32,000 nucleotides of DNA, from contig NZ_JAVKTS010000002.1 in NCBI RefSeq assembly GCF_031460495.1, positions 209,332-241,331 of the forward strand, given 5' to 3'. The position numbers and the translations under genes are program-made. The notes beneath the pieces were generated by a model. That model saw only the letters and a program-made list of their open reading frames with translations. It ran no database searches and was not told the origin of the DNA. Positions within the stretch are counted from its first letter, which is position 1. Every line of letters begins with the position of its first letter. Below, piece by piece: positions 8,753 through 25,638 of the stretch. Source of the DNA: Tissierella sp. GTDB lineage: Bacteria > Bacillota > Clostridia > Tissierellales > Tissierellaceae.

Positions 8753-8922
8753 GTGGACTGAGGTGAGGTTCATATTGAACCTACCAGAAGGACTCACTTT
8801 AACAATATACTTAACATCAGAAAAAGAACAATTATAAATATAGATATACTATTTACTTTTATATTAATCAGTTTAATAACAGATTAAGTATGATAATTTC
8901 AATACCAATCCAATACCCAATA

Positions 8923-8955
8923 AATAATATTCTAATAATATTCTAATAATATTCT
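8923..8955. repeat. Perfect 3 x 11-bp tandem repeat AATAATATTCT
   Basis: Read directly: units at 8923-8933, 8934-8944 and 8945-8955, in the AT-rich spacer upstream of the BREX operon. Confidence 0.9.
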
Positions 8956-9013
8956 GATATTTAATAATTTAGATATGATAATGATATATTTTTTGAGATA
9001 TTGAACGATTATG

Positions 9014-9061
9014 TTGAAGTTTTTATAATAGTCCTATATAATATAATCATGTTGCTATAAT
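9014..9061 (+). promoter_or_regulatory. Candidate sigma-70-type promoters for the HTH/BREX operon
   Basis: TTGAAG (9014-9019), 17 nt, TATAAT (9037-9042). A second extended -10, TGcTATAAT, lies at 9053-9061. Both are about 50-90 nt upstream of the 9108 ATG. Confidence 0.5.
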
Positions 9062-9107
9062 CGTTATATGGAAATTTGTGAAAAGATAAGATGAGTAAAG
9101 AGGTGCT

Positions 9108-9320
9108 ATGATGAGCGTAAGTTATAAAAAATTATGGAAGCTGATTATTGATAAAGATATGACCAACGTTGAAGTTCGAAAAGCTACAGGAATTAGCCCC
9201 GCTACTTTTACCAAGCTTAAGAAAAATGAAATTGTATCTCTAGATATTTTATTAAAGATATGCAAATTGTTGGATTGTAATATTGGCGATATTGTAGATG
9301 TTGTAAAGGATGCAGAGTGA
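9108..9320 (+). CDS. Small XRE/YozG-like HTH transcriptional regulator, first gene of the BREX locus
   Basis: 70 aa. 'MTNVEVRKATGISPATFTKLKKNE...LDILLKICKLLDCNIGDIV' matches the short HTH-only (HTH_26-like) pattern. AGAGGTG RBS. Confidence 0.7.
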   Translation: MMSVSYKKLWKLIIDKDMTNVEVRKATGISPATFTKLKKNEIVSLDILLKICKLLDCNIGDIVDVVKDAE

Positions 9321-9383
9321 TGTCCGTTTTATGGTACAGCTCTTCTGTTATATTAATATGGGTAAGTTTTTGGAGGAAGATCT

Positions 9384-9980
9384 ATGGAAAAATATAGTTC
9401 AGGACTTGTATCAGAATCTTTTTGGTTTATCGAATTCAAAAAGATAATAAAGTTGAGAAATGACGGTAAATCTTGGGATGACATTAGAGATCTATGTTTA
9501 AATGATAATTTGCTTGGCATCTCGAAGGAGTATAGAGCAAGGCGTATTTATGGATACTTAAAAAATCGAGTCGATGTAATTGATGAAGGTCTAATAAATA
9601 TATTTATCAATGCGGATTTAACAACTCAGAAGATTATCAATATTATTGCCATAGCAAAGAAAAATAGATTGTTTTTTGAGTTTTTATATGAGGTATATCG
9701 TGAAAAGGTACTACTTGGCGCTATAGAGCTTACAGATAGTGACATTAATATCTTTTTCAAAAATAAGCAGGGGCAAGATGAAGATATTAGCAAATGGACA
9801 GATGTGACATTAAAAAGACTTCGTAGCACGTACATGAATTTTTTAACTGATGCAGGATTTTTAACCGGAATAGATAAACAAAGAAGTATCACACCACCGA
9901 TCTTAGAAATCTCACTGGAGAATTATCTTAAAGATAATGGCGAAAAGCAGATGCTTAAAGCTATAAGGGGGGCAGATTAA
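9384..9980 (+). CDS. brxA: BREX protein BrxA (DUF1819)
   Basis: About 198 aa, starts 'YSSGL...', helical, ends '...FLTDAGFL'. Its position is immediately 5' of brxB/brxC. Confidence 0.85.
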   Translation: MEKYSSGLVSESFWFIEFKKIIKLRNDGKSWDDIRDLCLNDNLLGISKEYRARRIYGYLKNRVDVIDEGLINIFINADLTTQKIINIIAIAKKNRLFFEFLYEVYREKVLLGAIELTDSDINIFFKNKQGQDEDISKWTDVTLKRLRSTYMNFLTDAGFLTGIDKQRSITPPILEISLENYLKDNGEKQMLKAIRGAD

Positions 9981-10565
9981 TTGCGTAATTTAGAGAGTAG
10001 GCTTAATGAATTAGAAGATAAGATAAAACAGCCAAATTTTAGAAAGAATAAAGGTCTTGGAAATGAAGTAGGTTATTATGTATTCGATTACCCAGCAGAG
10101 CAAGAGCTTACTGTGAGAGAAAGAGTGCATTATCTTGTATCAAAGTATGAAAAAAATGTTCATGATTTTAAGTTAATTGTATTTGATTTGTATGACATTA
10201 TTATAGATTTGTTGATACAAGAAGGCTTTTTAGAAATTTGCGAAGAATTTGAAAAGACGAAAGGTTTACAAGAGATTACAAGGGCAGTCAACGAGATGCT
10301 TCGTATGGAAGAAGATAACCAAAGTAATGAGATATTGGCGCATATTAAGAAAAATACACCAAAGGATTCAATTGTGTTTTTAACAGGTGTTGGGAAATGC
10401 TTTCCTATTTTGCGTTCACATAAAATTCTAAACAATTTACATCAATTTATAGATGAGGTTCCAGTTGTAATGTTTTTTCCTGGAAAGTACGATGGTCAAT
10501 CATTGATGCTTTTTTCTGAAATTAAAGATGATAATTATTACAGAGCATTTAAGCTCGTAGATTGA
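9981..10565 (+). CDS. brxB: BREX protein BrxB (DUF1788)
   Basis: 194 aa, abuts the brxA stop (TTG start). 'YYVFDYPAEQEL' is the characteristic BrxB N-terminal motif. Position fits. Confidence 0.85.
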   Translation: MRNLESRLNELEDKIKQPNFRKNKGLGNEVGYYVFDYPAEQELTVRERVHYLVSKYEKNVHDFKLIVFDLYDIIIDLLIQEGFLEICEEFEKTKGLQEITRAVNEMLRMEEDNQSNEILAHIKKNTPKDSIVFLTGVGKCFPILRSHKILNNLHQFIDEVPVVMFFPGKYDGQSLMLFSEIKDDNYYRAFKLVD

Positions 10566-10578
10566 GAGGTGGAGGATT

Positions 10579-13500
10579 ATGTTTATAAAGAATATGTTTG
10601 CTAAACCAATTGACAGAAATATAAAAGGTGTTATTAAAGTTGGACAAGGTGATGATGAAAATGTAAAGCAAGAGCTTGAAGAATATGTAGTAACAAGAGA
10701 GCTACAAAAACACTTTGCAGATTTTTTTTCTAGTTATAAAAGAGGAATTGTTGGAAATACAGATGCAATGGGTGTTTGGATTTCTGGTTTCTTTGGAAGT
10801 GGTAAATCACATTTCTTAAAAATACTATCTTACCTATTGGAAAATCGTGTTGTTGATGGAAAAACAGCACTTAATTATTTTATCGAAGACAAAAAAATAA
10901 AAGATGAAATGGTACTTGCGGATATGCAACTTGCAGCCAACGTATCAAGTGATGTTATTTTGTTTAATATTGATTCTAAAAGTGGAATGGGTGATACTCA
11001 GAATAACAAGGAAGCTATTCTTTCTGTATTTTTAAAAGTCTTTAATCAACATTTAGGGTTCTATGGGGCTAACCCTTTTTTGGCAGATTTAGAAAGGCAA
11101 CTTACAGAGGAAGGTAAATATGAAGATTTCAAAAAAGCATTTGCAGAAATACGTGGTAAGAAATGGTTAGACTCTAGACATCAATTTAGATTTATTCAGG
11201 ATGATGTATGTAAGACATTGGTTCAAATAGATTTTATGAGTATGGATGCTGCAAAAAATTGGTGTGAAAGTTCTACAGGTACCTATAATATCGACATTAT
11301 GACTTTTGCAAATATGGTTAAGAAATACATAAATAAGAAAGGTAACAATCATCACATTGTATTTCTAGTGGACGAAATTGGACAATATATTGGTGATGAT
11401 TCAAAATTAATGTTAAATCTACAGACAGTTACTGAAGATTTAGGATCTGCTTGCCACGGTAAAGCTTGGGTTGTAGTTACTAGTCAGCAGGATATTGATA
11501 GCATTACAAAAACGAAGGGAAATGATTTCTCCAAGATTCAAGGTAGATTTGATACAAGACTTTCTTTGTCATCAGCAAACGTTGATGAAGTAATACGAAA
11601 GAGAATACTTGAAAAAACAGAAACAGGAAGACAAACATTGGGGCTTCTCTACGATGAAAAAGATACGATAATCAAAAACCTTATTATTTTTAATGACGGC
11701 ATAGAAAAGAAACTATATTCGGATAGAAATGATTTTTCTGCTGTTTACCCTTTCGTTCCTTATCAGTTTAATTTGCTGGCAAGTGTACTTACTTCAATAC
11801 GGACTCATGGAGCAAGCGGTAAGCATCTAGCAGAAGGTGAGAGATCTATGCTGGCATTATTTAAAGAGTCTGCTATGAAGATTATGGAGAATTCTGAAGG
11901 ATCAATTGTTCCTTTTAATCTGTTCTATGATGCTCTTGAACAATTTTTAGATCATAGTCATAAGGGCGTTATTATCCGTGCCTATGATAATGAATACTTA
12001 AATCCTGACAAATTAGAGGATTGTTTTGATGTCAATGTTTTAAAGACACTTTTTATGATTAAATATGTCAAAGAAATTGTTGCGAATTTAGAGAACATCA
12101 CAAGCTTAATGATTTCTAATATTGATGATGATAGAATTGTACTAAAAGATAAAGTTGAGCAGTCTTTAAAACGTCTTGTTCGCCAAACTCTCATACAAAA
12201 AACTGGTGAGGTATACGTGTTTTTAACTGATGAAGAACAGGAGATTAATAGAGAAATTGAAAGTCAAAATGTTGAAATTTCTGAAGTTATTGGGAAAGTA
12301 TCAGAGATGATTTTTGATGGGTTATATTCAGAGAAAAAATACAGATATCCAGCATTTAACGGTCGATATAATTTTGGGTTTAATCAGATTGTAGATGACA
12401 GACCTTATAAGGGAAATCAAAATTACGATATCTCACTTAGAATATTAACACCAAATTATGAATCAGGTACAGATGAAACAACACTTCGCATGATGAGTGG
12501 TCAGAGTAAATGTGTTATTGTAGCACTACCAGATGATAAAGCATTTATAGATGAGATTCGCTCTGCCCTAAAGATAGAAAAGTATTTAAGATTGAATACG
12601 TCCAATAGGGTAAGTAAATATGAGCAAATCAAAGAAGCAAAACGTGTTGAAATGCGTGAGAGGAATTCAAATGCTCGCATTTTTCTGGAAGAATCTTTGA
12701 AGGATGCTGATATTTATACTAATAGTGACAAAATACAGAATGTATCAAAAGATATAGCTGTGCGTATTAATGATGCTCTTGGTAGACTTGTACATACCGT
12801 ATATCACAAGCTATCTTATATTGATACTTCAGTGGGAGAATCTCATATCAGATCAGTTTTGAAAGGAAATAATAATAATCAACTTTCCCTTGATGGTACT
12901 GATCAAACACCTAATAAACTTGCTTTAAAAGATGTCTTAGATTTTATAAGTATGAATACTCAAAGACATGCGAAGACATCTATGAAGTCCATAATGGAGC
13001 GATTTACAAAAGCACCATACGGATTTATAGAGGATGACGTTCAATGGCTAATTGCTAAATTATTTAAAGATGGTGATATAGCATTATTTGTGAACAATGA
13101 TGTGGTTACCCTATTAACCAAATCTGAGGATGAGGTCTATCGCTACCTTAGTCGTAAAGAATATCTCGAAAAGCTTCTTACAGAACAAAGAGAGAAAGCA
13201 AATGATAAGCAGAAGAAAGCTGTGAGAGAAGTTATGAAAGAGCTGTTTAATGTGTCACCAATGAGTGATGAAGATGATTCCATGTTAAAGAGCTTTCAGC
13301 AATATGCAACTAACTTAAAAAATGATCTTGAAAAGTTAGAAATTCATTACAAAAACGAACCAAGCTATCCGGGTAACAATGTTGTCAAAGATGGAAAGTC
13401 TGAGCTTATGAACTTGTTGGAAATTAAGTACTCAGTGGAATTTTTTAAGACAGTTGATGATAAATTGGATAAAATATTGGGATTTGCAGAAGATTATGAA

Positions 13501-14205
13501 CCTGTAAAAGCTTTCTTTGGTGGGGAACAGATTGAGATTTGGAATCGAAGTCTACGCTTGCTAAAGATATATGATGATAGTAAGACATTTATAGTCAACA
13601 AAGAAATTGAAACAGTGGTTGCTGAAATAAAAGGAATCATGAAGAAATCATATCCTTATAGTGAAATCAGAAAGATACCTGAACTTCTTGAGCGTTATAC
13701 AGAACATTATAATAGAATGCTCGATGAAATGGAGCAACCTGTTCTTGCTGCCATTAAAGAAGCACACTCTCGTGTTGTGGAAGAACTTGAAGGAAAAGAG
13801 TGCAAAGATATATTTTCTAAAAAGGTATATGAACGTTTTAATGAAATTAGTGAAAAAGCAAAAAGCTGTAATAATGTAGCTACCTTACAAAATATAAAAG
13901 TGGAAGCTGATGCTTTAAAAGTCCGATTGCTCAATGAGATTAGTACAGAAGAAACACGCATTATAGAATCAAAACTACTAAAACCAACACCTGAATCAGG
14001 AGCCGACAAAGTCGCTGAAAATCATATGCCTTTTATTAATAAGCCAAAGATGAAAACCCAAAAGACTGTTAGTATCAAATCAATCAATTCAGAGACTACT
14101 TGGAGGATTGAAACAGAAGCAGATGTAGACCGTTATGTTGAAACCTTAAAGGCAAAATTAAAGCAAAGTATTAAAGAAAATACAATCTTGAATATAGAAT
14201 TTTAA
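10579..14205 (+). CDS. brxC: BREX P-loop ATPase BrxC/PglY
   Basis: 1208 aa. Walker A 'GFFGSGKSHF', Walker B 'IVFLVDEIGQY', long coiled C-terminal half. GGTGGAGG RBS. Confidence 0.9.
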   Translation: MFIKNMFAKPIDRNIKGVIKVGQGDDENVKQELEEYVVTRELQKHFADFFSSYKRGIVGNTDAMGVWISGFFGSGKSHFLKILSYLLENRVVDGKTALNYFIEDKKIKDEMVLADMQLAANVSSDVILFNIDSKSGMGDTQNNKEAILSVFLKVFNQHLGFYGANPFLADLERQLTEEGKYEDFKKAFAEIRGKKWLDSRHQFRFIQDDVCKTLVQIDFMSMDAAKNWCESSTGTYNIDIMTFANMVKKYINKKGNNHHIVFLVDEIGQYIGDDSKLMLNLQTVTEDLGSACHGKAWVVVTSQQDIDSITKTKGNDFSKIQGRFDTRLSLSSANVDEVIRKRILEKTETGRQTLGLLYDEKDTIIKNLIIFNDGIEKKLYSDRNDFSAVYPFVPYQFNLLASVLTSIRTHGASGKHLAEGERSMLALFKESAMKIMENSEGSIVPFNLFYDALEQFLDHSHKGVIIRAYDNEYLNPDKLEDCFDVNVLKTLFMIKYVKEIVANLENITSLMISNIDDDRIVLKDKVEQSLKRLVRQTLIQKTGEVYVFLTDEEQEINREIESQNVEISEVIGKVSEMIFDGLYSEKKYRYPAFNGRYNFGFNQIVDDRPYKGNQNYDISLRILTPNYESGTDETTLRMMSGQSKCVIVALPDDKAFIDEIRSALKIEKYLRLNTSNRVSKYEQIKEAKRVEMRERNSNARIFLEESLKDADIYTNSDKIQNVSKDIAVRINDALGRLVHTVYHKLSYIDTSVGESHIRSVLKGNNNNQLSLDGTDQTPNKLALKDVLDFISMNTQRHAKTSMKSIMERFTKAPYGFIEDDVQWLIAKLFKDGDIALFVNNDVVTLLTKSEDEVYRYLSRKEYLEKLLTEQREKANDKQKKAVREVMKELFNVSPMSDEDDSMLKSFQQYATNLKNDLEKLEIHYKNEPSYPGNNVVKDGKSELMNLLEIKYSVEFFKTVDDKLDKILGFAEDYEPVKAFFGGEQIEIWNRSLRLLKIYDDSKTFIVNKEIETVVAEIKGIMKKSYPYSEIRKIPELLERYTEHYNRMLDEMEQPVLAAIKEAHSRVVEELEGKECKDIFSKKVYERFNEISEKAKSCNNVATLQNIKVEADALKVRLLNEISTEETRIIESKLLKPTPESGADKVAENHMPFINKPKMKTQKTVSIKSINSETTWRIETEADVDRYVETLKAKLKQSIKENTILNIEF

Positions 14206-14217
14206 CGGGAGGAAGTT

Positions 14218-17200
14218 ATGAATAAGACAGCAATTAAGAACTTTGCCATATGGGCTAGATGTAAACTCATCAGCGATATCACATATAAAGCAGGGGTTAT
14301 AGGTATCAATGAAAAATGCATATTACAGCCATTGCCAATATCCACAGATAATGTACAATTTTTTGACATTGGTACAGGAAAACCTACTGAGATTTCAAAT
14401 CATGAAATTAAGCAACGTAATGCTCTTGTACATAGAATCAAAGAAAAAGAAAGTACATCTGATTATAGAACGGCTTTTCAATTTGTTATGGAAGAAGTTG
14501 CATATACGTGGTTTAATCGCTTGGTTGCTATTCGTTTTATGGAAGTCAATGATTATCTACCTTCACGTATTCGTGTACTTTCAAGTGAAACAAAGGGAAA
14601 GTCAGAACCAGATATGGTGACGACACCCTTTGATACGGATATGAATTTCTCACCATATGAAAAAGATAGAATCGTACAGTTAAAAGATGAGAATAAATTG
14701 AATGAACTATTCCGTATGCTATTTATTAAGCAATGTAATAAATTAAATGAGGTGCTTCCCGAACTCTTCGAAGAGACATCGGACTATACAGAATTCTTAC
14801 TTAATATTTCTTTTACAGATAAAGATGGAGTTGTAAGTCATCTTATAAATGATATTGAAGAGAAAGATTTTACTGAGGCAGTAGAAATTATCGGATGGCT
14901 TTACCAGTATTATAATGAAGAACGTAAGAATGAGGTCATAAATATTTATAAAGGAACAATTAAAAAGGATGACATACCAGCAGCCACGCAGTTATTTACA
15001 ACGGATTGGGTTGTTCGTTATATGGTTGATAATTCTCTAGGTCGTTATTGGATAGAAAGAAATCCTCAGAGTAAATTACAAGATAAATTACAATATTTTT
15101 TGACACCTAAAAATGGTGAAATTCAATTTATTAATGAAAAAGTTACCCCTGAAGAGATGACGTTTTTTGACCCTTGTATGGGAAGTGGTCATATTCTTGT
15201 ATATGCCTTTGATGTACTTATGGAAATATATAGAGAGTGTGGTTATGTAGATAGAGATGCAGCACAGGCAATTGTTGAAAACAATCTATTTGGGTTGGAT
15301 ATTGATAACCGCGCTTATCAACTTGCTTATTTTGCAGTTATGATGAAAGCACGTAGTTATGATAGAAGATTTTTAACTAGAAAAATCGAACCTAATATTT
15401 CTGTAATTGAAGAAACCAATACAATTAAAAAGTTTAGCTGTGATGGTGTTACTAACGACAGAGAACAGAATAAAGTTGGTGAATATCTTGTTAATGCCTA
15501 TAAGCATGCAAAAGAAATAGGTAGTTTAATACCTATTGAAAATAGAGATTATAATGCGTTTGAAGAATATTTAAATACCTGTAACCTTTCTGGTCAGATT
15601 ACAATTGATAGCGATCATTGGAACAGAGATACTTTACCAGTAATGATAAAGGTTGTAAAACAAGCACGTATTATGATACAAAAGTATTCAGTTGTTTGTA
15701 CCAATCCTCCTTATATGAACAAATTAGAGGGGAATCTCAAAAAGTTTGTGGTTGAGAAATACAAACCATATAGTGGAGATTTATTCTCTGTGTTTATATA
15801 TAAAAATTTTGATTACTGTAAGCCAAACGGTTATTCAGCATTCATGACACCATTTGTATGGATGTTTATAAAAACTTATGAAAAACTGAGGGAATATATC
15901 ATCAATCAAAAATCAATTACTACACTTGTGCAGATGGAATATTCTGCTTTTGAGGAAGCTACTGTACCTATATGCTCTTTTGTTTTGAAAAATGGCAAAA
16001 TAGAAAAAGGATTGTATTTTAAGCTGTCTGATTTTAAAGGTGGAATGGAAGTACAGAAACAAAAAGTGTTAGAAGCAATTGAGGATAAAGAGTGTGGATA
16101 CTTTTATGAAACAAGTTCAGAAAACTTCTCCAAAATCCCTGGTTCGCCGATTGCGTATTGGGTAACTGAGAAAATTCATTTATGTTTTGAAAAAGGGAGT
16201 ATTCTTGGTGAAATTGCGAAACCTCGACAAGGTATGGCAACAACAAATAACAATCTTTTCTTAAGGCAATGGTATGAAGTTAATAATATGAAAACTTTTT
16301 TTATTGCAAAAAATAGCAAAGAAGCTTATGAGAGCAGTAAGAAATGGTTTCCATATAATAAAGGCGGAGAATATAGAAAGTGGTATGGAAATAATGATTG
16401 TTTAGTTAATTGGGAAGATGATGGCAGAGATATAAAAAAATACCTCGAAGGCAAAAATCCGAACATTCCAAGAGGTGAATCTCTTTATTTTGACAAGTGC
16501 TTTTCTTGGTCGTTAATTTCTTCTGCATCACCTGCTTTTAGATTTAAAGATTATGGAAATATATTTGATATTGCAGGAATGAGTTGTTTTTCCACCAATA
16601 ATCTCTGGTATCTGTTAGCATTGTGCAATAGTAAAATTGCACTAAAAATTCTTAGAATTTTAGCGCCTACGATTAATTTCCAAGCGGGAGATATCGCAAA
16701 TATACCTGTTATTTTTTCCAAAGAACACGAGGCACAAATAAATATTTTAGTCGATCAAAATATTTCCATCTCTAAAACTGATTGGGATTCCTTCGAAACA
16801 TCATGGGATTTTATTACTCATCCACTCATTATCTATCGTAGTAGTGCAGATTATGCCGATGTACAGATGGATAAATGGCAGTTTAAAATAGTTGATGCTT
16901 TTAGAAGTTGGGAAAGTAATACAGAAACGCAATTTAATATCCTCAAAGCCAACGAAGAAGAACTTAATCGTATTTTCATAGAAATATACGGCTTACAAGA
17001 TGAACTTACTCCCGAGGTAGAAGATAAGGATGTTACTGTCCGAAAGGCAGACCTACAAAGAGATATTAAAAGCCTTATATCCTATGCAGTTGGATGCATG
17101 TTCGGGAGATATTCCCTTGATGTAGATGGCCTTGCTTACGCAGGTGGCGAATGGAATGATAGCAAATACACCACTTTTATACCTGATGAGGATAACTGTG

Positions 17201-17790: not shown

Positions 17791-17801
17791 GGTGATGATT
17801 T

Positions 17802-18521
17802 ATGGAGAAGGAAATGATAATTTCTGATATTAATCACTTGCTTAATACTGTTAGTACCGCTATTGAGGATGAAGATTCAAATATGTCTTCGTTTATTTAT
17901 GATAATTATATTAGAATTGCCGAAGTATGCAAAAGTAATTACTTTTTAAATATTCCGTTACTTTCATTGAATGATATTCTGAATTATGAAGAAAAGGGTG
18001 GTATGCGAGGAACATATTCTGCAATTCAAACGAGTTTAAAGCAGATTAAGAGTAGAATAGAAATATATATAAGTTATAATCCGAGAACTTATACTAAACC
18101 GTATTTTATGGATATTAAAGATTCAATTATTTCAGAAATCGAACGAGCAAGTTTTGTTATTTGGATTGCTATTGCTTGGTTTACGGATCTTGATATTTAT
18201 AAAGCTTTATTATCTGCTAAAGAGCAAGGTGTAAATGTTCAAATATTAACACTCAACCATGAAAATAATAAAAATAGAGATGGTAGCTATAAGTTGGACT
18301 TTAGAAAGAAAATTGAAACTAAATACTTTTCCGGATATGTTGTAGGGCAAGAAAATTTACATCATAAATTTTGCATGATTGATTTTGAAATGGTTATTAC
18401 TGGATCATATAATTGGACTATAAGTGCAAGTAAAAATTCAGAAGATGTAATATTTGTTTATGATATAGAAACAGCAAAAAATTATGCTGAAAAATTTGTA
18501 GATTTAAAGAAAAAAGTTTAA
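17802..18521 (+). CDS. PLD-superfamily (single HKD, Nuc/BfiI-like) putative nuclease with an uncharacterised ~100-aa N-terminal region
   Basis: 'HHKFCMID' (HxKx4D) plus 'GSYNWT' at 18360-18419. Upstream, 'ASFVIWIAIAWFTDLDIYKALLSAKEQGVNVQIL' is the usual PLDc_2 beta-alpha-beta start. There are 11-nt gaps to pglX and to pglZ. Confidence 0.75.
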   Translation: MEKEMIISDINHLLNTVSTAIEDEDSNMSSFIYDNYIRIAEVCKSNYFLNIPLLSLNDILNYEEKGGMRGTYSAIQTSLKQIKSRIEIYISYNPRTYTKPYFMDIKDSIISEIERASFVIWIAIAWFTDLDIYKALLSAKEQGVNVQILTLNHENNKNRDGSYKLDFRKKIETKYFSGYVVGQENLHHKFCMIDFEMVITGSYNWTISASKNSEDVIFVYDIETAKNYAEKFVDLKKKV

Positions 18522-18532
18522 GGTGGTGAAAA

Positions 18533-21052
18533 ATGGCAGAACTTAATTTAAAACAGATAACAGATAAACTAAATAGCGAATTTGCATCAGATATCCGTAA
18601 GCTAGTCTTCTGGTATGATGCTAATGCAGAATTTGTATCAGATATAGATACATTGGAACTTGAGAATGCAAAGATTTTCAGACTTGAGAGAGACAATCAG
18701 TTTCATACGAAATATTTCTTAGAGCGTAAAGATACAAAAACTAATTATTTAATATATGCACCTTTTCCAAAGCCAGCACTAAAGGACAATCATCTGGCAG
18801 ATACAATACGCTATTCCAAAGAGTTTTTTGCAGACAGAGCCTCATTACTGGCGATCGATTTAGGTATTGATGAGAAGTATAAGCCTGTGCTACAACATTA
18901 TATTAAGTTCTTTGGGGCGAAAGATAGAACACAAAAGTTTTATGAATTGGAAATTGAGAATTTTAATAAACCAGTTATAGAAACAGCACTTATGAGTGTA
19001 ATTTGCAAGACTAAGGTTGTTTCATTTGAGGAAATTGTCAGGACCATGATTTCAGAGGGAGAGTTAGAGAATAATAAATATTTGGCTGAATTTGAGAAGT
19101 ATGATTTGATAGAACCTTTCTGGAAGATGTGTGAGGAAACCTTTGGATACACAGATATTGTACCGTCTTTATCAAAACTTATTTACACATTGTTTGTGAC
19201 CTATACCTCAAAGGTGATTCATACAGAGCTTCCACAAGCATGGAGAAATTATTGTTCTTATAAATCAGGGAATATCATAGCTTTTTTGGATAGTTTAATG
19301 AATAGCCTGATTTATAATGAGAACTTCGATGAACTTTCACAGATGGTATATGACAGCTTAAAAGGTGACGATATCTTTGAAAGAATAGGGACAGATAATA
19401 TAGTTGATTGTGAAATATTCCGTAAGGTTGATATCTTCATAATTAAATGGCTTATTGCAAGGCTTGAGAATGAAGATACCGATGCTAAATTGCATGGATA
19501 TACTATACCGGAAATTTGTCGTTTAAGAAGAAAGATGCACTATAGAAAGATATATTATTCCCATTACTATATTATTGAAAATGCCTATTACCTGATTCTT
19601 GCAGCTCACTTTGAGCCTAAGAAAACAATAGAAGAAATAGCAAATCAATATATTGTAAAAGATTATATGATTGACCAGAAATATCGCTATTTCTATTTTC
19701 ACTTTGATAAAGTGTTAAATAATACCCCATATGAATCTCTTCGTGATTTGGTAGAGAATATTTATACAAATAAATTCTTAGATGAATTGTCCGTAGAGTG
19801 GAACAAGGCCTTAGTAGATGCGAAAGCAGATACAGGGCTTATAAAACAGCAGGAATTTTTTAATAGATATATAAGAAACTCCAAAGAACGTGTTGTTGTT
19901 ATTATATCCGATGCACTCCGCTTTGAAGTAGGGCAAACCCTAATGAAAAGGTTGCAGGAAGATGAAAAATGTACAGCGAAGATTGCAGCAATGCAAAGTG
20001 TCTTACCTTCCTATACGAGATTTGGTATGTCAGCATTACTCCCACATAAAGAACTTTCTATGAGTGATGACTATAAGATTTTAGTAGATGGTAAGGTATG
20101 TGATGATTTAAAGTCGAGAGAACAAATACTACAAACTTATGTGCCAAATAGTCGAACAGTCCAATTTGATGACATAAAAACAATGAAGATAGCTGATTTG
20201 AAGGAGATATTCGTTGGACAGGATGTTGTATATATATATCATAATCAGATAGATGCCAGAGGTGATAAGCTAAATACTGAAAATGAAGTCTTTATTGCCT
20301 GCGAAGAAGCTGTAGAAGAGATTCATACTATGATAAAAAGACTTACAAGTGCCAATAACATTCATTTTATAATAACGGCAGATCATGGATTCATCTATAA
20401 ACGTGACAAACTAGCTGAAAGTGATAAAATTGGTGGCTTTCATAAGAATAATGCTTTGGTTGGCAGACGATATGTTGTTGCAAACGAAAGAGTGAATGCA
20501 GATGGTATTGGAAGTGTTACACTAGGGGATATATTAGGGAGTGATGATCAAAGGGTAGTTTCAGTTCCAATAGGCAGCGATGTTTTCAAAGTGTCTGGAG
20601 GAGGCCAAAACTATGTGCATGGCGGTTCTTCATTACAGGAATTGATTATCCCTGTCATAGATGTAAGAACTAACAAATATCATACAGAAACTAAAACGGT
20701 AAGTATTGGACTTGTGAGCTTGGTGCATAAGATTACCAATCTTATGACTAATCTTGATTTTATCCAGACAGATCCAGTTACTGATATTAATAAAGAGACG
20801 GTTTATAAACTGTTCTTTATCTCAGATGATAATGAAAAAATTTCAAATGATAATATCTACGTTGCAGATAAAAAAGATAAAGATGCAAGTAAGCGAATAT
20901 TCCGATTAAAGTTTACTTTTAAGAATAAACAATATGGTAAAAACAGAAAATATTACCTTGTTGCCTATGATGAAAAAAATGCACTTGAAGTGATTCGTCA
21001 TGAGGTAAAGATGGACTTAGCATTTGTTGATGATTTCGGGTTTAATGTTTAG
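18533..21052 (+). CDS. pglZ: BREX alkaline-phosphatase-superfamily protein PglZ
   Basis: 839 aa. 'VVVIISDALRFE' and 'IITADHGF' are PglZ-domain motifs. AGGTGGTGA RBS. Confidence 0.9.
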   Translation: MAELNLKQITDKLNSEFASDIRKLVFWYDANAEFVSDIDTLELENAKIFRLERDNQFHTKYFLERKDTKTNYLIYAPFPKPALKDNHLADTIRYSKEFFADRASLLAIDLGIDEKYKPVLQHYIKFFGAKDRTQKFYELEIENFNKPVIETALMSVICKTKVVSFEEIVRTMISEGELENNKYLAEFEKYDLIEPFWKMCEETFGYTDIVPSLSKLIYTLFVTYTSKVIHTELPQAWRNYCSYKSGNIIAFLDSLMNSLIYNENFDELSQMVYDSLKGDDIFERIGTDNIVDCEIFRKVDIFIIKWLIARLENEDTDAKLHGYTIPEICRLRRKMHYRKIYYSHYYIIENAYYLILAAHFEPKKTIEEIANQYIVKDYMIDQKYRYFYFHFDKVLNNTPYESLRDLVENIYTNKFLDELSVEWNKALVDAKADTGLIKQQEFFNRYIRNSKERVVVIISDALRFEVGQTLMKRLQEDEKCTAKIAAMQSVLPSYTRFGMSALLPHKELSMSDDYKILVDGKVCDDLKSREQILQTYVPNSRTVQFDDIKTMKIADLKEIFVGQDVVYIYHNQIDARGDKLNTENEVFIACEEAVEEIHTMIKRLTSANNIHFIITADHGFIYKRDKLAESDKIGGFHKNNALVGRRYVVANERVNADGIGSVTLGDILGSDDQRVVSVPIGSDVFKVSGGGQNYVHGGSSLQELIIPVIDVRTNKYHTETKTVSIGLVSLVHKITNLMTNLDFIQTDPVTDINKETVYKLFFISDDNEKISNDNIYVADKKDKDASKRIFRLKFTFKNKQYGKNRKYYLVAYDEKNALEVIRHEVKMDLAFVDDFGFNV

Positions 21053-21069
21053 TTTAGGAGGATGGCAGA

Positions 21070-23139
21070 ATGGCTGATTTAAATAAATTTGATGAAGTAG
21101 ATAATCCCAATACTGTCATAAATAAAAAGCTAAGACAGTATTTTGACGGGAAGATAGTCCGAAAGGATTTGACAAAATCTATTAAAGAGGGAGCTAATGT
21201 ACCCATTTACGTTCTGGAATTTTTATTGGGGCAATATTGTAGCTCTGATGATCCGGACATTATTGAAGAAGGAGTAAAAACAGTAAAAAAAATTCTAGCA
21301 GATAATTTTGTTCGCCCTGATGAAGCACAGAAGGTTTTATCTATTTTGCGTGAACAAGGTAGTTATACAGTAATAGACCGTATTACTGCTAAACTTAATA
21401 TTAAGCAAGATCGATACGAAGCAGAATTCTCGAATCTAGGAGTTAGGGAAATACTCCTTGCTCCTGATTATGTATCTAAGTTCGACAGATTACTTTGTGG
21501 TGGTATTTGGTGCATTGTTCAACTTGAATATGAATTTTTAGAAGAAGACAAAAGAGCAACTCCCATTCGTGTGAGGAAATTGACACCAATTCAGATGCCT
21601 CATATTGAGTTAGATGAAATAAAGGAAGCCAGAAAAGAATTTACAAAAGATGAGTGGATTAATATTTTACTTCGTTCTACAGGTATGGAACCAGATAAAT
21701 TTACTGAACGTGAAAAATGGCTTCTCCTTGCTCGTATGATTCCACTTGTAGAAAACAATTTTAATCTTTGTGAACTTGGTCCTCGTAGTACAGGTAAGTC
21801 CCATATTTACAAAGAGATATCACCTAATAGCATTCTTGTATCTGGAGGTCAAACTACAGTTGCTAATCTTTTTTATAACATGGCCAATAAGACAATTGGT
21901 CTGGTTGGAATGTGGGATTGTGTTGCTTTTGATGAGGTTGCAGGGATTACCTTTAAAGATAAAGACGGTATTCAGATTATGAAGGATTATATGGCATCAG
22001 GTTCATTTGCTCGTGGGAAAGAGGAAAAGGCTGCGAGTGCATCTATGGTTTTTGTAGGTAATATTAATCAAAGTGTGGATGTACTACTAAAAACCTCTCA
22101 TTTATTCGAGCCATTTCCAGAAGCTATGGCTTATGATACTGCTTTCCTTGACCGTATGCATTGTTATATCCCTGGTTGGGAAATACCGAAGTATAGACCA
22201 GATTTCTTTACAAATGAATATGGATTTATAACGGATTATTTTTCTGAATTTATGCGTGAAATGCGTAAAGAACAGTTTAGTGATATAAGTGATAAATATT
22301 TTAGATTTGGTTCTAACTTAAACCAACGTGATGTTATTGGTGTCAGAAAAATGATATCAGGGTTTGCTAAGCTTCTCTATCCAAACGAGGAATTTACAAA
22401 AGAAGATATAGCTGAGATAGTGACTATATCACTTGAACTAAGAAGACGTGTAAAAGAACAGCTTAAAAAGATAGGTGGAATGGAATTTTATGATGTGAAT
22501 TTCTCCTACATAGATAATGAAACCTTTGAAGAACATTATGTATCAGTTCCAGAACAAGGTGGAGGCAAATTGATTCCTGAAGGCATCAGTAACCCTGGAC
22601 ATGTGTATACCATATCAAGAGGTAAAACTGGTATGATAGGAGTCTATCGTTTGGAAACACAAGTTTTACCGGGCAATGGAAAATTTGAACGCACTGGTCT
22701 TGGTACTGATAGAGAAGCTAGAGAGGCTACTAATACTGCATTTAACTATCTAAAAGCTAATGGTCATTCAATCAGCAACTCTATTAGTACGACAACAAAA
22801 GATTACATCATAAATTATCAGGATTTAAATGGAATAGGAATTACTAAATACTTAACCTTACCTACACTAATTGCAATTGCATCAGCAGCACTAAATAAGC
22901 CAACCTTAAGTAGTCTTGCTGTTTTAGGTGATATCAGTATCAGTGGAACAATTTTAAAAGTAGAGGAATTGGCCAGTGTATTGCAAGTATGCCTAGATAG
23001 CGGAGCAAAGAAGGTGTTACTACCAATTACATCTGCAGCAGAGATGGGAACAGTGCCATCGGATTTGATGGGTGCTTTTAGCATAATATTTTATTCAACG
23101 CCACAAGAAGCAGTGTTTAAAGCTTTAGGTGTAGAGTAA
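21070..23139 (+). CDS. brxL: BREX Lon-like ATPase/protease-domain protein BrxL
   Basis: 689 aa. Walker A 'GPRSTGKSH', Walker B-like 'VAFDEVAG', C-terminal Lon-protease-like fold ('AVLGDISISGTILKV...GAKKVLLP'). AGGAGG RBS. Confidence 0.9.
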   Translation: MADLNKFDEVDNPNTVINKKLRQYFDGKIVRKDLTKSIKEGANVPIYVLEFLLGQYCSSDDPDIIEEGVKTVKKILADNFVRPDEAQKVLSILREQGSYTVIDRITAKLNIKQDRYEAEFSNLGVREILLAPDYVSKFDRLLCGGIWCIVQLEYEFLEEDKRATPIRVRKLTPIQMPHIELDEIKEARKEFTKDEWINILLRSTGMEPDKFTEREKWLLLARMIPLVENNFNLCELGPRSTGKSHIYKEISPNSILVSGGQTTVANLFYNMANKTIGLVGMWDCVAFDEVAGITFKDKDGIQIMKDYMASGSFARGKEEKAASASMVFVGNINQSVDVLLKTSHLFEPFPEAMAYDTAFLDRMHCYIPGWEIPKYRPDFFTNEYGFITDYFSEFMREMRKEQFSDISDKYFRFGSNLNQRDVIGVRKMISGFAKLLYPNEEFTKEDIAEIVTISLELRRRVKEQLKKIGGMEFYDVNFSYIDNETFEEHYVSVPEQGGGKLIPEGISNPGHVYTISRGKTGMIGVYRLETQVLPGNGKFERTGLGTDREAREATNTAFNYLKANGHSISNSISTTTKDYIINYQDLNGIGITKYLTLPTLIAIASAALNKPTLSSLAVLGDISISGTILKVEELASVLQVCLDSGAKKVLLPITSAAEMGTVPSDLMGAFSIIFYSTPQEAVFKALGVE

Positions 23140-23237
23140 AGGGGATTTTGTGGAGAAGAGAAAGAATCAAAAAAAGACTGTATACGAGGCGAAAGTATAA
23201 CTATCTCAATAATGCGGATATGGAGGGGCAAGTCATT

Positions 23238-23978
23238 ATGACTACTACACTAGTTAATTTTTTATTGATAAATAGTAGTGCTTTATCAATTGATATGTTT
23301 AGCTATACAGAAGACATTATGAAAGTACTATTCAAAAAAGGGTTAATAACTCAATTTAGTATTAGTGATGCAAGAGCAGATTTTGGCGATGGTACATGTA
23401 TTGTTGAGATTGTGGATACTATATACACATCAGAATATATTTACATAAAAGGCGAAGAAAAAACACATTGGCAGTTGATTTTCGAATTTGGAACATTTAC
23501 ATCATCTAGTCAGTTGCAAATAAAAATTAACTCGAATGATTATGACGTAAAAGTTGCTGATAACTATTTAGAACAACTAAAACTTTCTATCAAGAATATT
23601 GTCAAATCAGATTGGGAAAGAACTATTTGGCTAATGGATAAGGACTCTGAAATTTTGTCAATTACTCTTTATCCGAGTGTTTATAGAGTAGAAAACATGA
23701 CACGACAGTTGATAAGTGAAATAATGACTAAGGAGTATGGTATTGGTTGGTGGGATGCATATGTTCCGATACAAATAAGAAATAAGCACAAAGTCAGATT
23801 GAGTGGGTATAAATCAATTGCCCCAGGATTTGCGAATGTCGATGAAAGACTAATGTCTATTGATATTGGGGATTTAAATTCCATACTCACTTTGAAAGAG
23901 AAAAAGTGGAACCCATCATTCAGCACAGAAATAAACAATTTCTTAATAACCAGTCAGATATTAAGCTTGAAAAAATGA
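23238..23978 (+). CDS. Hypothetical protein; the C-terminal part looks like the first half of a Swt1-like HEPN domain
   Basis: GGAGGGG at 23222-23228 then ATG at 23238, preferred over the basic TTG-initiated extension from 23148. 'VENMTRQLISEIMTKEYGIGWWDAYVPIQIRNKH...IDIGDLNSIL' matches the E..lR..I...G..WW...P pattern of Swt1-type HEPN as I recall it. There is no RX4-6H in this ORF. Confidence 0.55.
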   Translation: MTTTLVNFLLINSSALSIDMFSYTEDIMKVLFKKGLITQFSISDARADFGDGTCIVEIVDTIYTSEYIYIKGEEKTHWQLIFEFGTFTSSSQLQIKINSNDYDVKVADNYLEQLKLSIKNIVKSDWERTIWLMDKDSEILSITLYPSVYRVENMTRQLISEIMTKEYGIGWWDAYVPIQIRNKHKVRLSGYKSIAPGFANVDERLMSIDIGDLNSILTLKEKKWNPSFSTEINNFLITSQILSLKK

Positions 23979-25006
23979 AAGAAGTATTATCTGACCAAAT
24001 GGAAGTTACCCTCGATCTGTGGGGAGAACAGTTTTCAAAATATTTATCAGAAGATTTTATAAAGAATTTTAAAACATTTGAGTTAAACCGTAACCATGTT
24101 GTTCATAACAAATTGATTGATCGTACGGCATATAGTAGTATATTCAACTCTATAAATATAGTAGAAGTAGAACTAAAAAAAGCATTGCAGAAAGTCGGGG
24201 AAATTGTTGTTTCCAGAGAACAAAGGGATGCAATTGAAGAACAAATGTATATAGCTCAACAGGAATCAGAAGCCGCGCTACATGAAATAATGGAGTCAGA
24301 GACTGGTGTTGAAATTAGGAATTCAGAGGAAATCATCGACTTGTATGACGAGTATTTATATCAATTTCACTCAGAACTTCAAGATTATTTAAGATTTCGC
24401 AATGACTTAGAAGTTGGAGAATATCAAAATATTTTATCTAAAAATAATGCTGGTACATTGTTTGAAATTACATATAAAATTAACGATAAAGTAGCCATAG
24501 TTAGCTATTCTATTGAATCTATTGATGATTCTCAGGGCGGAGAAAGTACTGTCGAGATAATAATTACATTAGATGAAAAAAGCGAATCTCATTCAATTAC
24601 TTATAGGAATGGAGAGGTGGTTTTTAACTCATACCAAGGGTGCTATTTACCAGAAACTCAAGATGCTATTTCCACAGAAGACATAGGTTTGCTAAAGGAT
24701 TATCTTGTAGAATTTCTCGATACTTATTTTGAAAATATTCGTGAGAAAGTGGATTCAGAAATGTATTCGATTATAAAAGATGGTGGGAATAGTCCCGTGG
24801 CGGACATTTCATGCTGTGAGTGTGGTGAAGAGTATATCTGTGTAGATGAAAATTATGGTGTATTTGGACAATGTCTAAATTGCGGAGAGATGAACGAAAT
24901 TTGTTTATGCGACAGGTGTGGTTGCTATTTTGAAGGTGAATCAAACGAATATAGAGATGCTCCAAACTTGTGTGATAGTTGTCAAGACTATTACGAAAAT
25001 CAATGA
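23975..25006 (+). CDS. Hypothetical protein with an N-terminal HEPN RX4H segment and a C-terminal four-CxxC zinc-ribbon cluster
   Basis: The ATG at 23975 overlaps the upstream TGA (ATGA). This frame is open from 23864. 'LWGEQF...FELNRNHVVHNKLID' carries RX4H at 24089-24106. The C-terminus reads 'CCECG...CLNCG...CDRCGC...CDSC'. Confidence 0.55.
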   Translation: MKEVLSDQMEVTLDLWGEQFSKYLSEDFIKNFKTFELNRNHVVHNKLIDRTAYSSIFNSINIVEVELKKALQKVGEIVVSREQRDAIEEQMYIAQQESEAALHEIMESETGVEIRNSEEIIDLYDEYLYQFHSELQDYLRFRNDLEVGEYQNILSKNNAGTLFEITYKINDKVAIVSYSIESIDDSQGGESTVEIIITLDEKSESHSITYRNGEVVFNSYQGCYLPETQDAISTEDIGLLKDYLVEFLDTYFENIREKVDSEMYSIIKDGGNSPVADISCCECGEEYICVDENYGVFGQCLNCGEMNEICLCDRCGCYFEGESNEYRDAPNLCDSCQDYYENQ

Positions 25007-25029
25007 AAGGACAAAAGAATTCTAAATTA

Positions 25030-25060
25030 AGCTCCCACTGTTCTAAGAATAGCAGGAGCT
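25030..25060. terminator. Hairpin between convergent genes (end of the BREX operon / end of immA)
   Basis: AGCTCC (25030-25035) pairs with GGAGCT (25055-25060), with further internal pairing. It lies exactly between the 25006 stop and the 25061 stop. The flanking T-tracts are weak. Confidence 0.45.
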
Positions 25061-25600
25061 TTACACTTTTATCTTCTTTAAAAAATCACCTTCAGGACGA
25101 TAAGGTACATTAAAATCATATCCCATTTTATTCATTTCCTGCATTTTTATTAGAAGTAGATTAATATGTGAATTTAACATGCTTGAAATTTGCACTATAT
25201 CATAACCATCTCGTGCTAGAGCTAATACCTCATCATTATCAATTAACAAATGAGAACCAAAGATATTGGCTTCGTATTCGGTAGTATTTTTCATATCAAA
25301 AAGTTCAAATTCCTTAAGACCATTACTGGCTAAATTTCTATGAAAAATATCATGACCGATTTCATGAGCTAATACCATCTGCCGCATGTGGTCATCTAAA
25401 TTATTATTAATAAAGATAATACGTTGTTTCCAACGATAGGTATACATGCCAAGTAGGTCATCATAATTCTCATAATAAATTTTGATACCAAGTTCATTGG
25501 CAATCTGTCTGGTATCCCTTGTCCCTATACGGTTGACAAGAGCATTTGCTTTCTTATATATTCTGAAAGAGTCAATCAAAGCAGCACCCCCTGTATACAA
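25061..25600 (-). CDS. ImmA/IrrE-family zinc metallopeptidase (anti-repressor protease)
   Basis: 'LAHEIGHDIFH' is an HExxH motif. About 179 aa, directly downstream of an XRE repressor gene as in ImmR/ImmA modules. Confidence 0.85.
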   Translation of the reverse strand: MYTGGAALIDSFRIYKKANALVNRIGTRDTRQIANELGIKIYYENYDDLLGMYTYRWKQRIIFINNNLDDHMRQMVLAHEIGHDIFHRNLASNGLKEFELFDMKNTTEYEANIFGSHLLIDNDEVLALARDGYDIVQISSMLNSHINLLLIKMQEMNKMGYDFNVPYRPEGDFLKKIKV

Positions 25601-25638
25601 TCTACTATTCCCCTGTTATTATACTAAAAAAGTTGGAC

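What the first reader, a model, noticed from the sequence alone, without database searches (positions are those of the whole stretch)
9014..25060. A 10-ORF 'BREX-plus' operon carried as cargo between the transfer and regulatory modules of a mobile element
Seen: the whole block is bracketed by a strong terminator (8714-8752) plus AT-rich spacer on the left. On the right is a convergent hairpin (25030-25060) against the ImmA/XRE module. All six type 1 core genes appear intact with their key motifs: Walker A/B in BrxC and BrxL, NPPY in PglX, DALRFE/ADHGF in PglZ. Inference: the element mobilises a complete BREX system plus two putative effectors (PLD nuclease, HEPN RNase). This would be a composite of epigenetic, nuclease and RNase functions rather than plain BREX, and the site looks like a cargo hotspot.
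Basis: partly seen in the sequence, partly recalled or inferred. Interest (0 to 1): 0.65.

Follow-up and report, generated by a model that had tools for sequence, protein, structure and literature searches.

The report
BREX defence cargo on conjugative element
A complete, ordinary type 1 BREX anti-phage system sits in a cargo hotspot of a conjugative element from a Clostridia-like bacterium, with a rare PLD-type nuclease gene in BREX's usual variable gap and, just downstream, an unrelated HEPN gene that a one-base deletion has broken.

Summary
The sequence features are real. Window 8832-25055 is a 16.2-kb cargo block between the T4CP/HTH_36 genes and ImmA/XRE. It carries brxA-brxB-brxC-pglX-pglZ-brxL, full length with all quoted motifs, led by a small XRE gene.

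Three corrections apply.
1. The last two ORFs (23148-23978 and 23906-25006) are one ~590-aa HEPN gene split by a 1-nt deletion near 23944. Relatives at 99% identity are intact.
2. This HEPN family is not BREX-linked. It was 0 of 80 related BREX loci, is absent from a 98.7%-identical BREX copy, and occurs alone on other ICEs, plasmids and defence islands.
3. The PLD gene occupies the pglX-pglZ junction. In about 47 of 69 related Firmicutes BREX loci this junction holds unrelated accessory genes. Near-identical BREX copies carry YjcQ or nothing there, and distant PLD relatives lie outside BREX.

The hotspot idea holds: sister ICEs carry type III-like R-M, type I R-M, other BREX variants or tetracycline-resistance-like genes at the same site.

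Auxiliary nucleases in BREX loci were catalogued in 2026 (PMC12839542). This is a new member of a known kind, of modest interest. The open question is whether the rare PLD nuclease co-operates with BREX.

The parts
6527..8683 (+). ICE backbone to the left of the cargo: T4CP (6527-8410) and a small HTH_36 protein (8423-8683)
   Evidence: Pfam T4SS-DNA_transf, TraG-D_C and HTH_36. 88.9% nt identical to sister ICE L106 up to 8831.
8714..8752 (+). Intrinsic-terminator-like hairpin closing the transfer module
   Evidence: -24.8 kcal/mol, z -3.95, followed by TTTTTT. Conserved in L106.
8832..25055 (+). Variable cargo region of the ICE hotspot (16.2 kb)
   Evidence: Homology to sister ICE L106 ends at 8831 and resumes at 25056.
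8923..8959 (.). Three tandem 11-nt repeats (AATAATATTCT) in the AT-rich leader. Function unknown; possibly operator sites.
9001..9042 (+). Two overlapping sigma-70-like promoter matches (10 of 12) upstream of the XRE gene. A hint only.
   Evidence: Such matches occur at chance frequency in this AT-rich DNA.
9108..9320 (+). 70-aa XRE/Cro-type HTH protein (XRE70), the leader gene of the cargo and probable regulator
   Evidence: Pfam HTH_26, E 1e-20. A homologue lies 19-80 nt upstream of brxA in 16 of 27 evaluable Firmicutes BREX loci. It also heads non-BREX cargo in L106.
9384..9980 (+). brxA
   Evidence: Pfam BrxA 1e-61; PADLOC BrxA 5e-81
9981..10565 (+). brxB
   Evidence: Pfam BrxB 9e-43; PADLOC 5e-73
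10579..14205 (+). brxC (P-loop ATPase)
   Evidence: NCBIfam BREX_BrxC 1347 bits, full length. Walker A at aa 70 and Walker B at aa 261.
14218..17790 (+). pglX (N6-adenine methyltransferase and specificity subunit). The most diverged gene among near-identical copies.
   Evidence: NCBIfam BREX_1_MTaseX 1415 bits. NPPY at aa 496. Only 79-85% nt identical to L021, against 98.7% for pglZ-brxL.
17802..18521 (+). Accessory gene in the pglX-pglZ slot: a 239-aa protein with an N-terminal three-helix domain and one HKD (PLD-type) nuclease domain
   Evidence: Pfam PLDc_2 3e-22. AF2 model pLDDT 87; best PDB matches NucT, Nuc and Zucchini. GC 27% against 31-36% for neighbouring genes. The cassette 17780-18519 is absent from L022 and replaced by YjcQ in L008 and L021.
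18533..21052 (+). pglZ (type A)
   Evidence: TIGR02687 550 bits. DALRFE and ADHGF motifs.
21070..23139 (+). brxL (Lon-like AAA+)
   Evidence: TIGR02653 1075 bits. Walker A at aa 237 and Walker B at aa ~286.
23220..25006 (+). One HEPN-family gene (about 590 aa when intact: N-terminal alpha/beta domain, HEPN with RNHxxHNK, C-terminal beta domain, two Cys4 zinc ribbons). It is split here by a 1-nt deletion at ~23944 into 252-aa and 343-aa ORFs.
   Evidence: The frameshifted allele is present in two separately assembled runs.
25029..25060 (.). Hairpin at the right cargo boundary, between the convergent HEPN and ImmA genes
   Evidence: Its 3' arm lies in the backbone shared with L106.
25061..26094 (-). 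ICE backbone to the right of the cargo: ImmA-like metallopeptidase (25061-25600) and XRE repressor (25639-26094)
   Evidence: Pfam Peptidase_M78 and HTH_19/HTH_3. 93% nt identical to L106.

Best explanation
Window 8832-25055 is the exchangeable cargo of a hotspot in a Clostridia-type ICE. The ICE backbone has a MobL relaxase, a DUF3991/Toprim protein, a T4CP, an ImmA/XRE switch and serine recombinases. The cargo is a mosaic of three separable modules.

1. A canonical type 1 BREX system headed by a small XRE regulator.
- Established for the BREX family: PglX methylates a non-palindromic site on resident DNA, and BrxA, BrxB, BrxC, PglZ and BrxL block replication of unmethylated incoming DNA.
- Inferred: the XRE protein sets or delays expression, like an R-M controller protein, when the ICE enters a new cell.

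2. A rare single-HKD PLD nuclease gene inserted at the pglX-pglZ junction.
- This junction is the boundary between the two BREX operons in B. cereus and is a general landing site for accessory defence genes.
- Inferred: the PLD protein dimerises to form one active site, like Nuc and NucT, and degrades nucleic acid.
- It most likely works as an autonomous second layer, as BrxU does. Less likely, it is a BREX-coupled backup DNase.

3. A stand-alone HEPN/zinc-ribbon gene of a family widespread on ICEs, plasmids and defence islands.
- It was added downstream of brxL and is inactivated here by a 1-nt deletion.
For: BREX:
- Full-length hits to type 1 models and all motifs present.

Hotspot:
- The L106 breakpoints lie at 8831 and 25056, with a different R-M-like cargo between them.
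- Other relatives carry type I R-M, other BREX variants or Tet-like genes at the same site.

PLD slot:
- About 47 of 69 related BREX loci have co-directional ORFs between pglX and pglZ. These ORFs fall into 47 clusters, including Schlafen-HATPase-wHTH, DUF3990, AAA_21, RhuM, Fic, DUF2971 and YjcQ.
- L008 and L021 are 98.6-98.7% identical downstream of the slot but carry YjcQ there. L022 has an empty slot.
- PLD homologues at 97%, 60% and 46% identity also follow pglX.
- The PLD gene's GC is 27%, against 31-36% for its neighbours.
- The predicted fold matches NucT, Nuc and Zucchini.

HEPN:
- Homologues are single proteins of about 584 aa.
- The 1-nt deletion is at ~23944.
- 0 of 80 BREX loci have this gene, and L021 lacks it.
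- It occurs beside a MobL relaxase, Lamassu-like genes, SieB/AbiE and a kinase, and on 148 plasmids.

XRE:
- A homologue lies just upstream of brxA in 16 of 27 loci.

Literature:
- Auxiliary nucleases in BREX loci are catalogued in PMC12839542.
- BrxU acts independently of its BREX system, and B. cereus BREX is transcribed as ABCX + ZL operons (PMC12707154 and PMC9122589).
Against: - Nothing here shows activity. The methylation motif, phage exclusion, nuclease activity and transcript structure are all untested.
- Tight spacing (0-17 nt) from brxA to brxL, including the PLD gene, is compatible with co-transcription and so with functional coupling.
- Three of the five PLD lineages whose context could be read are inside BREX. 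That could reflect real co-operation rather than a safe harbour.
- The frameshift rests on assemblies. It is seen in two runs that may come from one study, so a shared error or a minority allele is not excluded.
Confidence: 0.8

Rival explanations
1. The ten ORFs form one integrated 'BREX-plus' system, transcribed as one unit, in which the PLD DNase and the HEPN RNase are effectors working with the BREX core.
For: - All genes are co-directional, with 0-17 nt gaps from brxA to brxL.
- No convincing internal terminator was found.
- The concept of backup effectors is published (PMC12839542).
Against: - The HEPN gene is frameshifted.
- It is absent from near-identical and related BREX loci and common without BREX.
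- An 80-nt gap follows brxL, and the HEPN gene's GC3 is 39% against 19-29% for the BREX genes and the PLD gene.
- The PLD gene is exchangeable with YjcQ or nothing.
- B. cereus BREX is transcribed as two operons split exactly at pglX|pglZ.
Confidence: 0.07
2. The PLD protein is a BREX-dependent auxiliary nuclease, a stand-alone counterpart of the HKD domain fused to BrxL in some type 1 systems. Its private N-terminal helical domain docks it on the BREX complex, and it degrades DNA that BREX has recognised or that PglZ has nicked.
For: - PLD lineages at 97%, 60% and 46% identity all sit directly after pglX or before pglZ.
- The gaps on both sides of the gene are 11 nt.
- The N-terminal domain occurs only in this ~240-aa family among 1.84 billion representative proteins.
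- BrxL-HKD fusions are reported in PMC12839542.
Against: - More distant members with the same architecture lie outside BREX. One is next to a Barstar-like gene. Another is at a prophage end next to an AbiJ-like gene.
- 0 of 80 related BREX loci in genomes have it.
- The slot hosts many unrelated genes.
Confidence: 0.25
3. The apparent frameshift is an assembly error or a tolerated or programmed shift, and the HEPN protein is made full length.
For: - The change is a single A in a short run (TTAATAA vs TTAAATAA).
- Only one other substitution lies within the gene, so the lesion, if real, is recent.
Against: - The same allele was assembled independently from two runs.
- An AA/AAA run is too short to be a typical homopolymer error, and no slippery heptamer or stimulatory structure is evident.
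- A -1 shift would be needed at a site with no known signal.
Confidence: 0.12

Closest known systems
Type 1 BREX (Bacillus cereus H3081.97, E. coli HS, Acinetobacter)
   Same: The same six genes in the same order, the same diagnostic motifs, and full-length matches to the type 1 models.
   Different: It is led by a 70-aa XRE protein and not by the WYL regulator BrxR. It has a PLD gene between pglX and pglZ. It is carried on a Clostridia-type ICE.
BREX loci with embedded auxiliary or backup nucleases (PMC12839542, NAR 2026), e.g. BrxU (GmrSD) in the E. fergusonii pEFER BREX island and PARIS-like modules
   Same: An extra nuclease gene sits inside the core BREX locus. The commonest slot occupant found here, Schlafen + HATPase + wHTH in 12 loci, is one that paper lists in at least 1017 taxa.
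   Different: That survey found HKD nucleases mainly fused to the C-terminus of BrxL. Here the HKD nuclease is a separate 239-aa protein with its own N-terminal helical domain, from a very rare family.
Single-HKD nucleases Nuc (pKM101), NucT (H. pylori) and Zucchini/PLD6
   Same: One HxK(x)4D(x)6GSxN motif per chain. The predicted fold superposes on them (Foldseek E 4e-11 to 6e-10; TM 0.66-0.77 normalised to the target). This implies a dimer with one shared active site.
   Different: Identity is only 19-26%, and scores are far below the NucT equivalog cut-offs (37 vs 225 bits). There is an extra ~95-aa N-terminal three-helix domain and no signal peptide.
DISARM DrmC and Dpd DpdK (PLD-type components of other methylation-based defences)
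   Same: A small PLD-family protein is encoded inside a modification-based defence operon. Weak profile matches exist (DrmC E 3e-9 in PADLOC).
   Different: No DrmA, DrmB or Dpd genes are present. The DrmC score of 18.5 bits is far below the 133-bit cut-off.
Defence cargo in ICE hotspots (e.g. BREX in hotspot 5 of SXT ICEs of Vibrio cholerae; recalled from my own knowledge, not checked here)
   Same: A fixed backbone site holds alternative defence systems in sister elements.
   Different: The ICE family is different (Firmicutes; MobL relaxase; serine recombinases). The hotspot lies between T4CP/HTH_36 and ImmA/XRE.

Membership tests
BREX type 1 | Six genes brxA, brxB, brxC, pglX, pglZ and brxL, clustered and co-directional | tested here: met
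   Full-length Pfam, PADLOC and NCBIfam hits in that order, 9384-23139
BREX type 1 | PglX is an N6-adenine methyltransferase with an NPPY catalytic motif. BrxL (Lon-like) is present as the type 1 signature. | tested here: met
   NPPY at aa 496. NF033452 1415 bits (cut-off 500). TIGR02653 1075 bits (cut-off 628).
BREX type 1 | Methylation of a non-palindromic site and exclusion of unmethylated phage without an abortive phenotype | not testable with these tools
   Needs methylome sequencing and phage assays
DISARM | DrmA (helicase) and DrmB (DUF1998) together with DrmC and a methylase | tested here: not met
   No such genes in the window. DrmC model 18.5 bits vs cut-off 133.
Single-HKD (Nuc/NucT-like) nucleases of the PLD superfamily | One HxK(x)4D(x)6GSxN motif on a PLD fold | tested here: met
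   H187, K189, D194, G201, S202 and N204 are invariant in alignment A2. PLDc_2 79 bits vs cut-off 27. Fold matches 6ehi, 1byr and 4ggk.
Single-HKD (Nuc/NucT-like) nucleases of the PLD superfamily | Dimerisation and nuclease activity | not testable with these tools
   Only a monomer model was made; no assay
NucT (NCBIfam equivalog) | Score above the equivalog cut-off | tested here: not met
   27-37 bits against cut-offs of 211-351
HEPN superfamily | Rx4-6H motif in a helical domain | tested here: met
   R291 and H296 (RNHxxHNK) are invariant in 57 homologues. The segment is helical in the AF2 model.
HEPN superfamily | Significant match to a HEPN profile | tested here: inconclusive
   HEPN_Swt1 gives 24.8 bits for the repaired protein against a cut-off of 27.5. 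PF18731 is precomputed for about 30 homologues. No PDB fold match for the whole chain.
HEPN superfamily | Intact reading frame in this window | tested here: not met
   1-nt deletion at ~23944 relative to L008 and L009
Integrative and conjugative element | Relaxase, coupling protein and integrase/recombinase on one element | tested here: met
   MobL 11-1369, T4CP 6527-8410, serine recombinases 28544-31064. A third recombinase lies in the parent contig.
Integrative and conjugative element | Mating-pair-formation (T4SS) genes and defined element ends | not tested
   These lie outside the window. Relatives L010-L017 show TrbL and VirB4-like genes upstream.
R-M controller (C) proteins (considered for the 70-aa XRE) | A small HTH protein encoded just upstream of, and co-directional with, the system it controls | tested here: met
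   Found 63 nt upstream of brxA here and 19-80 nt upstream in 16 of 27 loci
R-M controller (C) proteins (considered for the 70-aa XRE) | Palindromic C-box operators in its own promoter, and autoregulation | tested here: inconclusive
   Only weak inverted repeats and three 11-nt direct repeats were found; no conservation analysis was done

The most novel reading that the evidence does not exclude
The ~240-aa 'three-helix + HKD' protein is a dedicated BREX partner. Its private N-terminal domain docks on PglX, PglZ or BrxL and gives this BREX lineage a true DNA-degrading arm. It would then be the free-standing equivalent of BrxL-HKD fusions. That would make it a tractable system for asking how BREX hands recognised DNA to a nuclease.
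Probability: 0.2. Interest if true: 0.5.

Novelty: new member of a known kind. Interest (0 to 1): 0.3.

Why it matters
- It gives a clean natural example, with near-isogenic comparators, of modular exchange at two nested levels. Whole defence systems swap at an ICE hotspot, and accessory genes swap at the pglX-pglZ junction inside BREX.
- The comparators are PLD, YjcQ and empty slots in BREX copies that are 85-99% identical.
- This set could be used to test whether slot occupants act with BREX or alone.
- The small XRE gene that heads BREX in 16 of 27 evaluable Firmicutes loci, and also heads other cargo, is a candidate regulator. It may play the role that BrxR plays in Proteobacteria.
- None of this overturns current understanding of BREX.

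Tried and rejected
- DISARM or Dpd reading of the PLD gene: rejected. No partner genes are present and the scores are below cut-off.
- Treating ORF9 and ORF10 as a coupled gene pair with an ATGA overlap at 23975: rejected. All homologues are single proteins, and the indel maps to 23944.
- Fold search of the whole HEPN-family model against the PDB: no significant hit (best E 3e-3, to small alpha/beta domains).
- Exact-protein look-up of HTH_36 to find other cargo: it returned only the same element. The T4CP scan of metagenomes was needed instead.
- Rfam scan: nothing within the finding; one pemK RNA outside it.
- Promoter and terminator scans inside the block: at chance level, so not used as evidence.
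- PLD search in plasmids: thousands of Nuc-like HKD hits, but none covers at least 80% of the protein. The best hit (B. subtilis plasmid) is not in a BREX locus.
- The Goldfarb 2015 paper could not be opened. The two-operon statement is cited second-hand from PMC9122589 and PMC12707154.

Full report
**1. What is in the window**

The window is about 32% G+C. Nearly all long ORFs are on the + strand.

Left of the finding lies a conjugation module:
- a MobL relaxase (11-1369), which runs off the left end of the window
- a HEPN_Cthe2314 protein (1534-2301)
- a SEC-C/TPR protein (2688-4634)
- a DUF3991/Toprim protein (5088-6503)
- a T4CP (6527-8410)
- an 86-aa HTH_36 protein (8423-8683)

Right of the finding lie an ImmA-like peptidase and an XRE repressor on the - strand (25061-26094), a sigma-like protein, and serine recombinases (28544-31064). 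This is an ICE of the Clostridia type. The same element is seen on an 83-kb contig.

**2. Checking the observation**

- The hairpin at 8714-8752 is real and unusually stable: -24.8 kcal/mol, z -3.95, followed by a T-run.
- The boundary hairpin at 25029-25060 is also real, with z about -3 on both strands.
- The six core genes give full-length matches to type 1 BREX models: BrxA, BrxB, BrxC (NF033441, 1347 bits), PglX (NF033452, 1415 bits), PglZ type A (TIGR02687, 551 bits) and BrxL (TIGR02653, 1075 bits).
- Every quoted motif is present.
- The PLD ORF (17802-18521) has one complete HKD motif.

One correction is needed for ORFs 23148-23978 and 23906-25006.
- They overlap by 73 nt in different frames.
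- The first carries the front of a HEPN-like domain. The second carries the Rx4H motif.
- A search with the joined sequence returned 228 homologues. All 120 listed are single proteins, nearly all 570-600 aa. One is a 595-aa protein 99% identical to the window.
- Alignment with two contigs encoding that protein shows the window lacks one A at ~23944 (TTAATAA vs TTAAATAA). Only two further substitutions occur in the aligned region, at 24493 and 25068.
- The truncated 252-aa product is recorded in two separately assembled sequencing runs. The lesion is therefore probably real.

The block holds nine genes, one of them broken.

**3. The cargo hotspot**

A metagenome scan with the T4CP gave 80 related ICE loci.

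The closest is L106, with T4CP 94%, HTH_36 96% and ImmA 96% aa identity.
- It aligns with the window at 5083-8831 and again from 25056, with nothing in between.
- Its 9.1-kb insert encodes an XRE70-like protein (50% identity), an SNF2 helicase, an N6/N4 methylase, a ResIII protein and a PD-(D/E)XK nuclease.

Other relatives carry different cargo at the same place:
- type I R-M (L110)
- SNF2 + DUF4391 + methylase (L108)
- XRE70-like plus other BREX variants (L134, L137)
- XRE + Trans_reg_C + a Tet-type GTPase (L010-L017)

The hotspot inference is supported.

**4. The PLD gene**

The family is very rare.
- Only 9 hits were found among 5.8 billion clustered proteins, and only 4 of them are full length.
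- Its N-terminal 95 residues recur only in a handful of ~240-aa proteins among 1.84 billion representatives.

The AlphaFold model (pLDDT 87) shows a three-helix N-terminal domain plus a PLD fold. The fold's best PDB matches are NucT, Nuc and Zucchini.

Context of the PLD lineages:
- Copies at 97%, 60% and 46% identity all lie just after pglX or just before pglZ.
- The 43% copy lies next to a Barstar-like gene.
- A copy about 35% identical lies at a prophage end next to an AbiJ-like gene.

BREX does not need the PLD gene.
- L008 and L021 (Firmicutes bacterium UBA3553) are 98.6-98.7% identical to the window from the pglZ start onward, but carry a 101-aa YjcQ gene in the slot.
- L022 (Sedimentibacter) is 85-89% identical and lacks exactly 17780-18519.
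- None of the 80 related BREX loci from genomes has a PLD homologue.

Among the 69 loci that show both pglX and pglZ, about 20 have a gap under 150 bp. About 47 have one to four co-directional ORFs in the gap. These ORFs fall into 47 clusters:
- Schlafen/AlbA_2 + HATPase_c_4 + wHTH (12 loci)
- DUF3990 sets
- AAA_21
- RhuM
- Fic
- DUF2971
- YjcQ
- HEPN-like proteins

The PLD gene is also compositionally distinct, at 27% GC against 31-36% for its neighbours. In B. cereus this junction separates the two BREX operons, ABCX and ZL (PMC9122589 and PMC12707154). That would explain why insertions are tolerated there.

**5. The HEPN-family gene**

Fifty-seven homologues share an invariant RNHxxHNK motif and eight Cys residues that form two zinc ribbons. 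The model (pLDDT 88) has N- and C-terminal beta-rich domains around a helical core, with no PDB match for the whole chain.

The family is common and is not tied to BREX.
- A 65%-identical member occurs in more than 1000 contig blocks, always just upstream of the MobL relaxase of related ICEs that lack BREX.
- Others lie beside a Ser/Thr kinase, a Lamassu-like set, or SieB/nSTAND/AbiE genes.
- The family is on 148 plasmids, mostly conjugative Bacillus and Enterococcus plasmids.
- 0 of 80 BREX loci have it within 10 kb.
- In L021, homology to the window stops at 23142, three bases after the brxL stop. It resumes at 27027, with a different 6.2-kb insert between.
- Its GC3 (39%) differs from the BREX genes (19-29%).

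It is an independent module, and it is inactive here.

**6. The XRE gene**

A homologue lies 19-80 nt upstream of brxA in 16 of 27 evaluable loci. It also heads the non-BREX cargo of L106. A controller-like role is inferred, not shown.

**7. Comparison with what is known**

Type 1 BREX membership is met on every sequence criterion. DISARM is excluded.

Auxiliary and backup nucleases embedded in BREX loci were catalogued in PMC12839542. These include HNH/GmrSD, PD-(D/E)XK, OLD/TOPRIM, HKD, HEPN and Schlafen types. There, HKD is mostly a BrxL fusion. BrxU acts independently of its BREX system.

The present locus adds a rare free-standing HKD variant and a well-resolved set of near-isogenic slot variants.

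**8. Verdict**

The 'composite BREX-plus system' reading is not supported for HEPN, and is unproven and less likely for PLD.
- Novelty: a new member of a known kind.
- Interest: 0.3.

Noticed in passing
window 27953-28032 (+): A pemK RNA motif (Rfam RF02913, 69 bits against a gathering score of 34.8) lies about 500 nt upstream of the first serine recombinase gene.
   Followed up: no
window 1354-5082: A second variable slot lies between the relaxase and the DUF3991/Toprim gene. It holds a HEPN_Cthe2314 protein (1534-2301) and a SEC-C/TPR protein (2688-4634). Both are absent from sister ICE L106, which has other DNA there. In related ICEs, the HEPN-family gene that sits after brxL here lies just upstream of the relaxase.
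   Followed up: partly
window 14218-17790 vs L001, L008, L021: PglX is far more diverged than the rest of the system between near-identical BREX copies. It is 79-85% nt identical, with unalignable stretches (about 15386-16119 against L001; 15432-16895 against L021), against 98.7% for pglZ-brxL. This suggests recombination or selection on the specificity region.
   Followed up: partly
window 18385-18413 (+): The second-best sigma-70-like match in the region (TTGAAA-17-TATAAT, 11 of 12) lies inside the 3' end of the PLD gene, about 120 nt upstream of pglZ. It could be the promoter of a pglZ-brxL operon, as in B. cereus. It is unproven, because such matches are at chance frequency overall.
   Followed up: no
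window 8923-8959: Three tandem copies of an 11-nt unit (AATAATATTCT) lie in the AT-rich leader, about 50 nt upstream of the promoter-like site for the XRE gene.
   Followed up: no
L003-L006 (e.g. L003 6738-7325): In the BREX lineage carrying the 46%-identical PLD, the slot holds a second gene: a 195-aa protein with no Pfam match, between pglX and the PLD gene.
   Followed up: partly
L033 8015-9049: Another BREX slot occupant is a 344-aa protein with an RNQIQH (Rx4H-like) motif followed by several Cys-rich zinc-ribbon-like repeats and no Pfam hit. Its HEPN + zinc-ribbon layout recalls the gene downstream of brxL in the window.
   Followed up: no
L021 8689-14859: In Firmicutes bacterium UBA3553, the segment between brxL and the sigma-like gene is replaced by a 756-aa ORF (- strand, no Pfam hit), a 150-aa ORF, a 638-aa N6_Mtase protein and a 220-aa ORF. 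The region right of BREX is therefore also exchangeable.
   Followed up: partly
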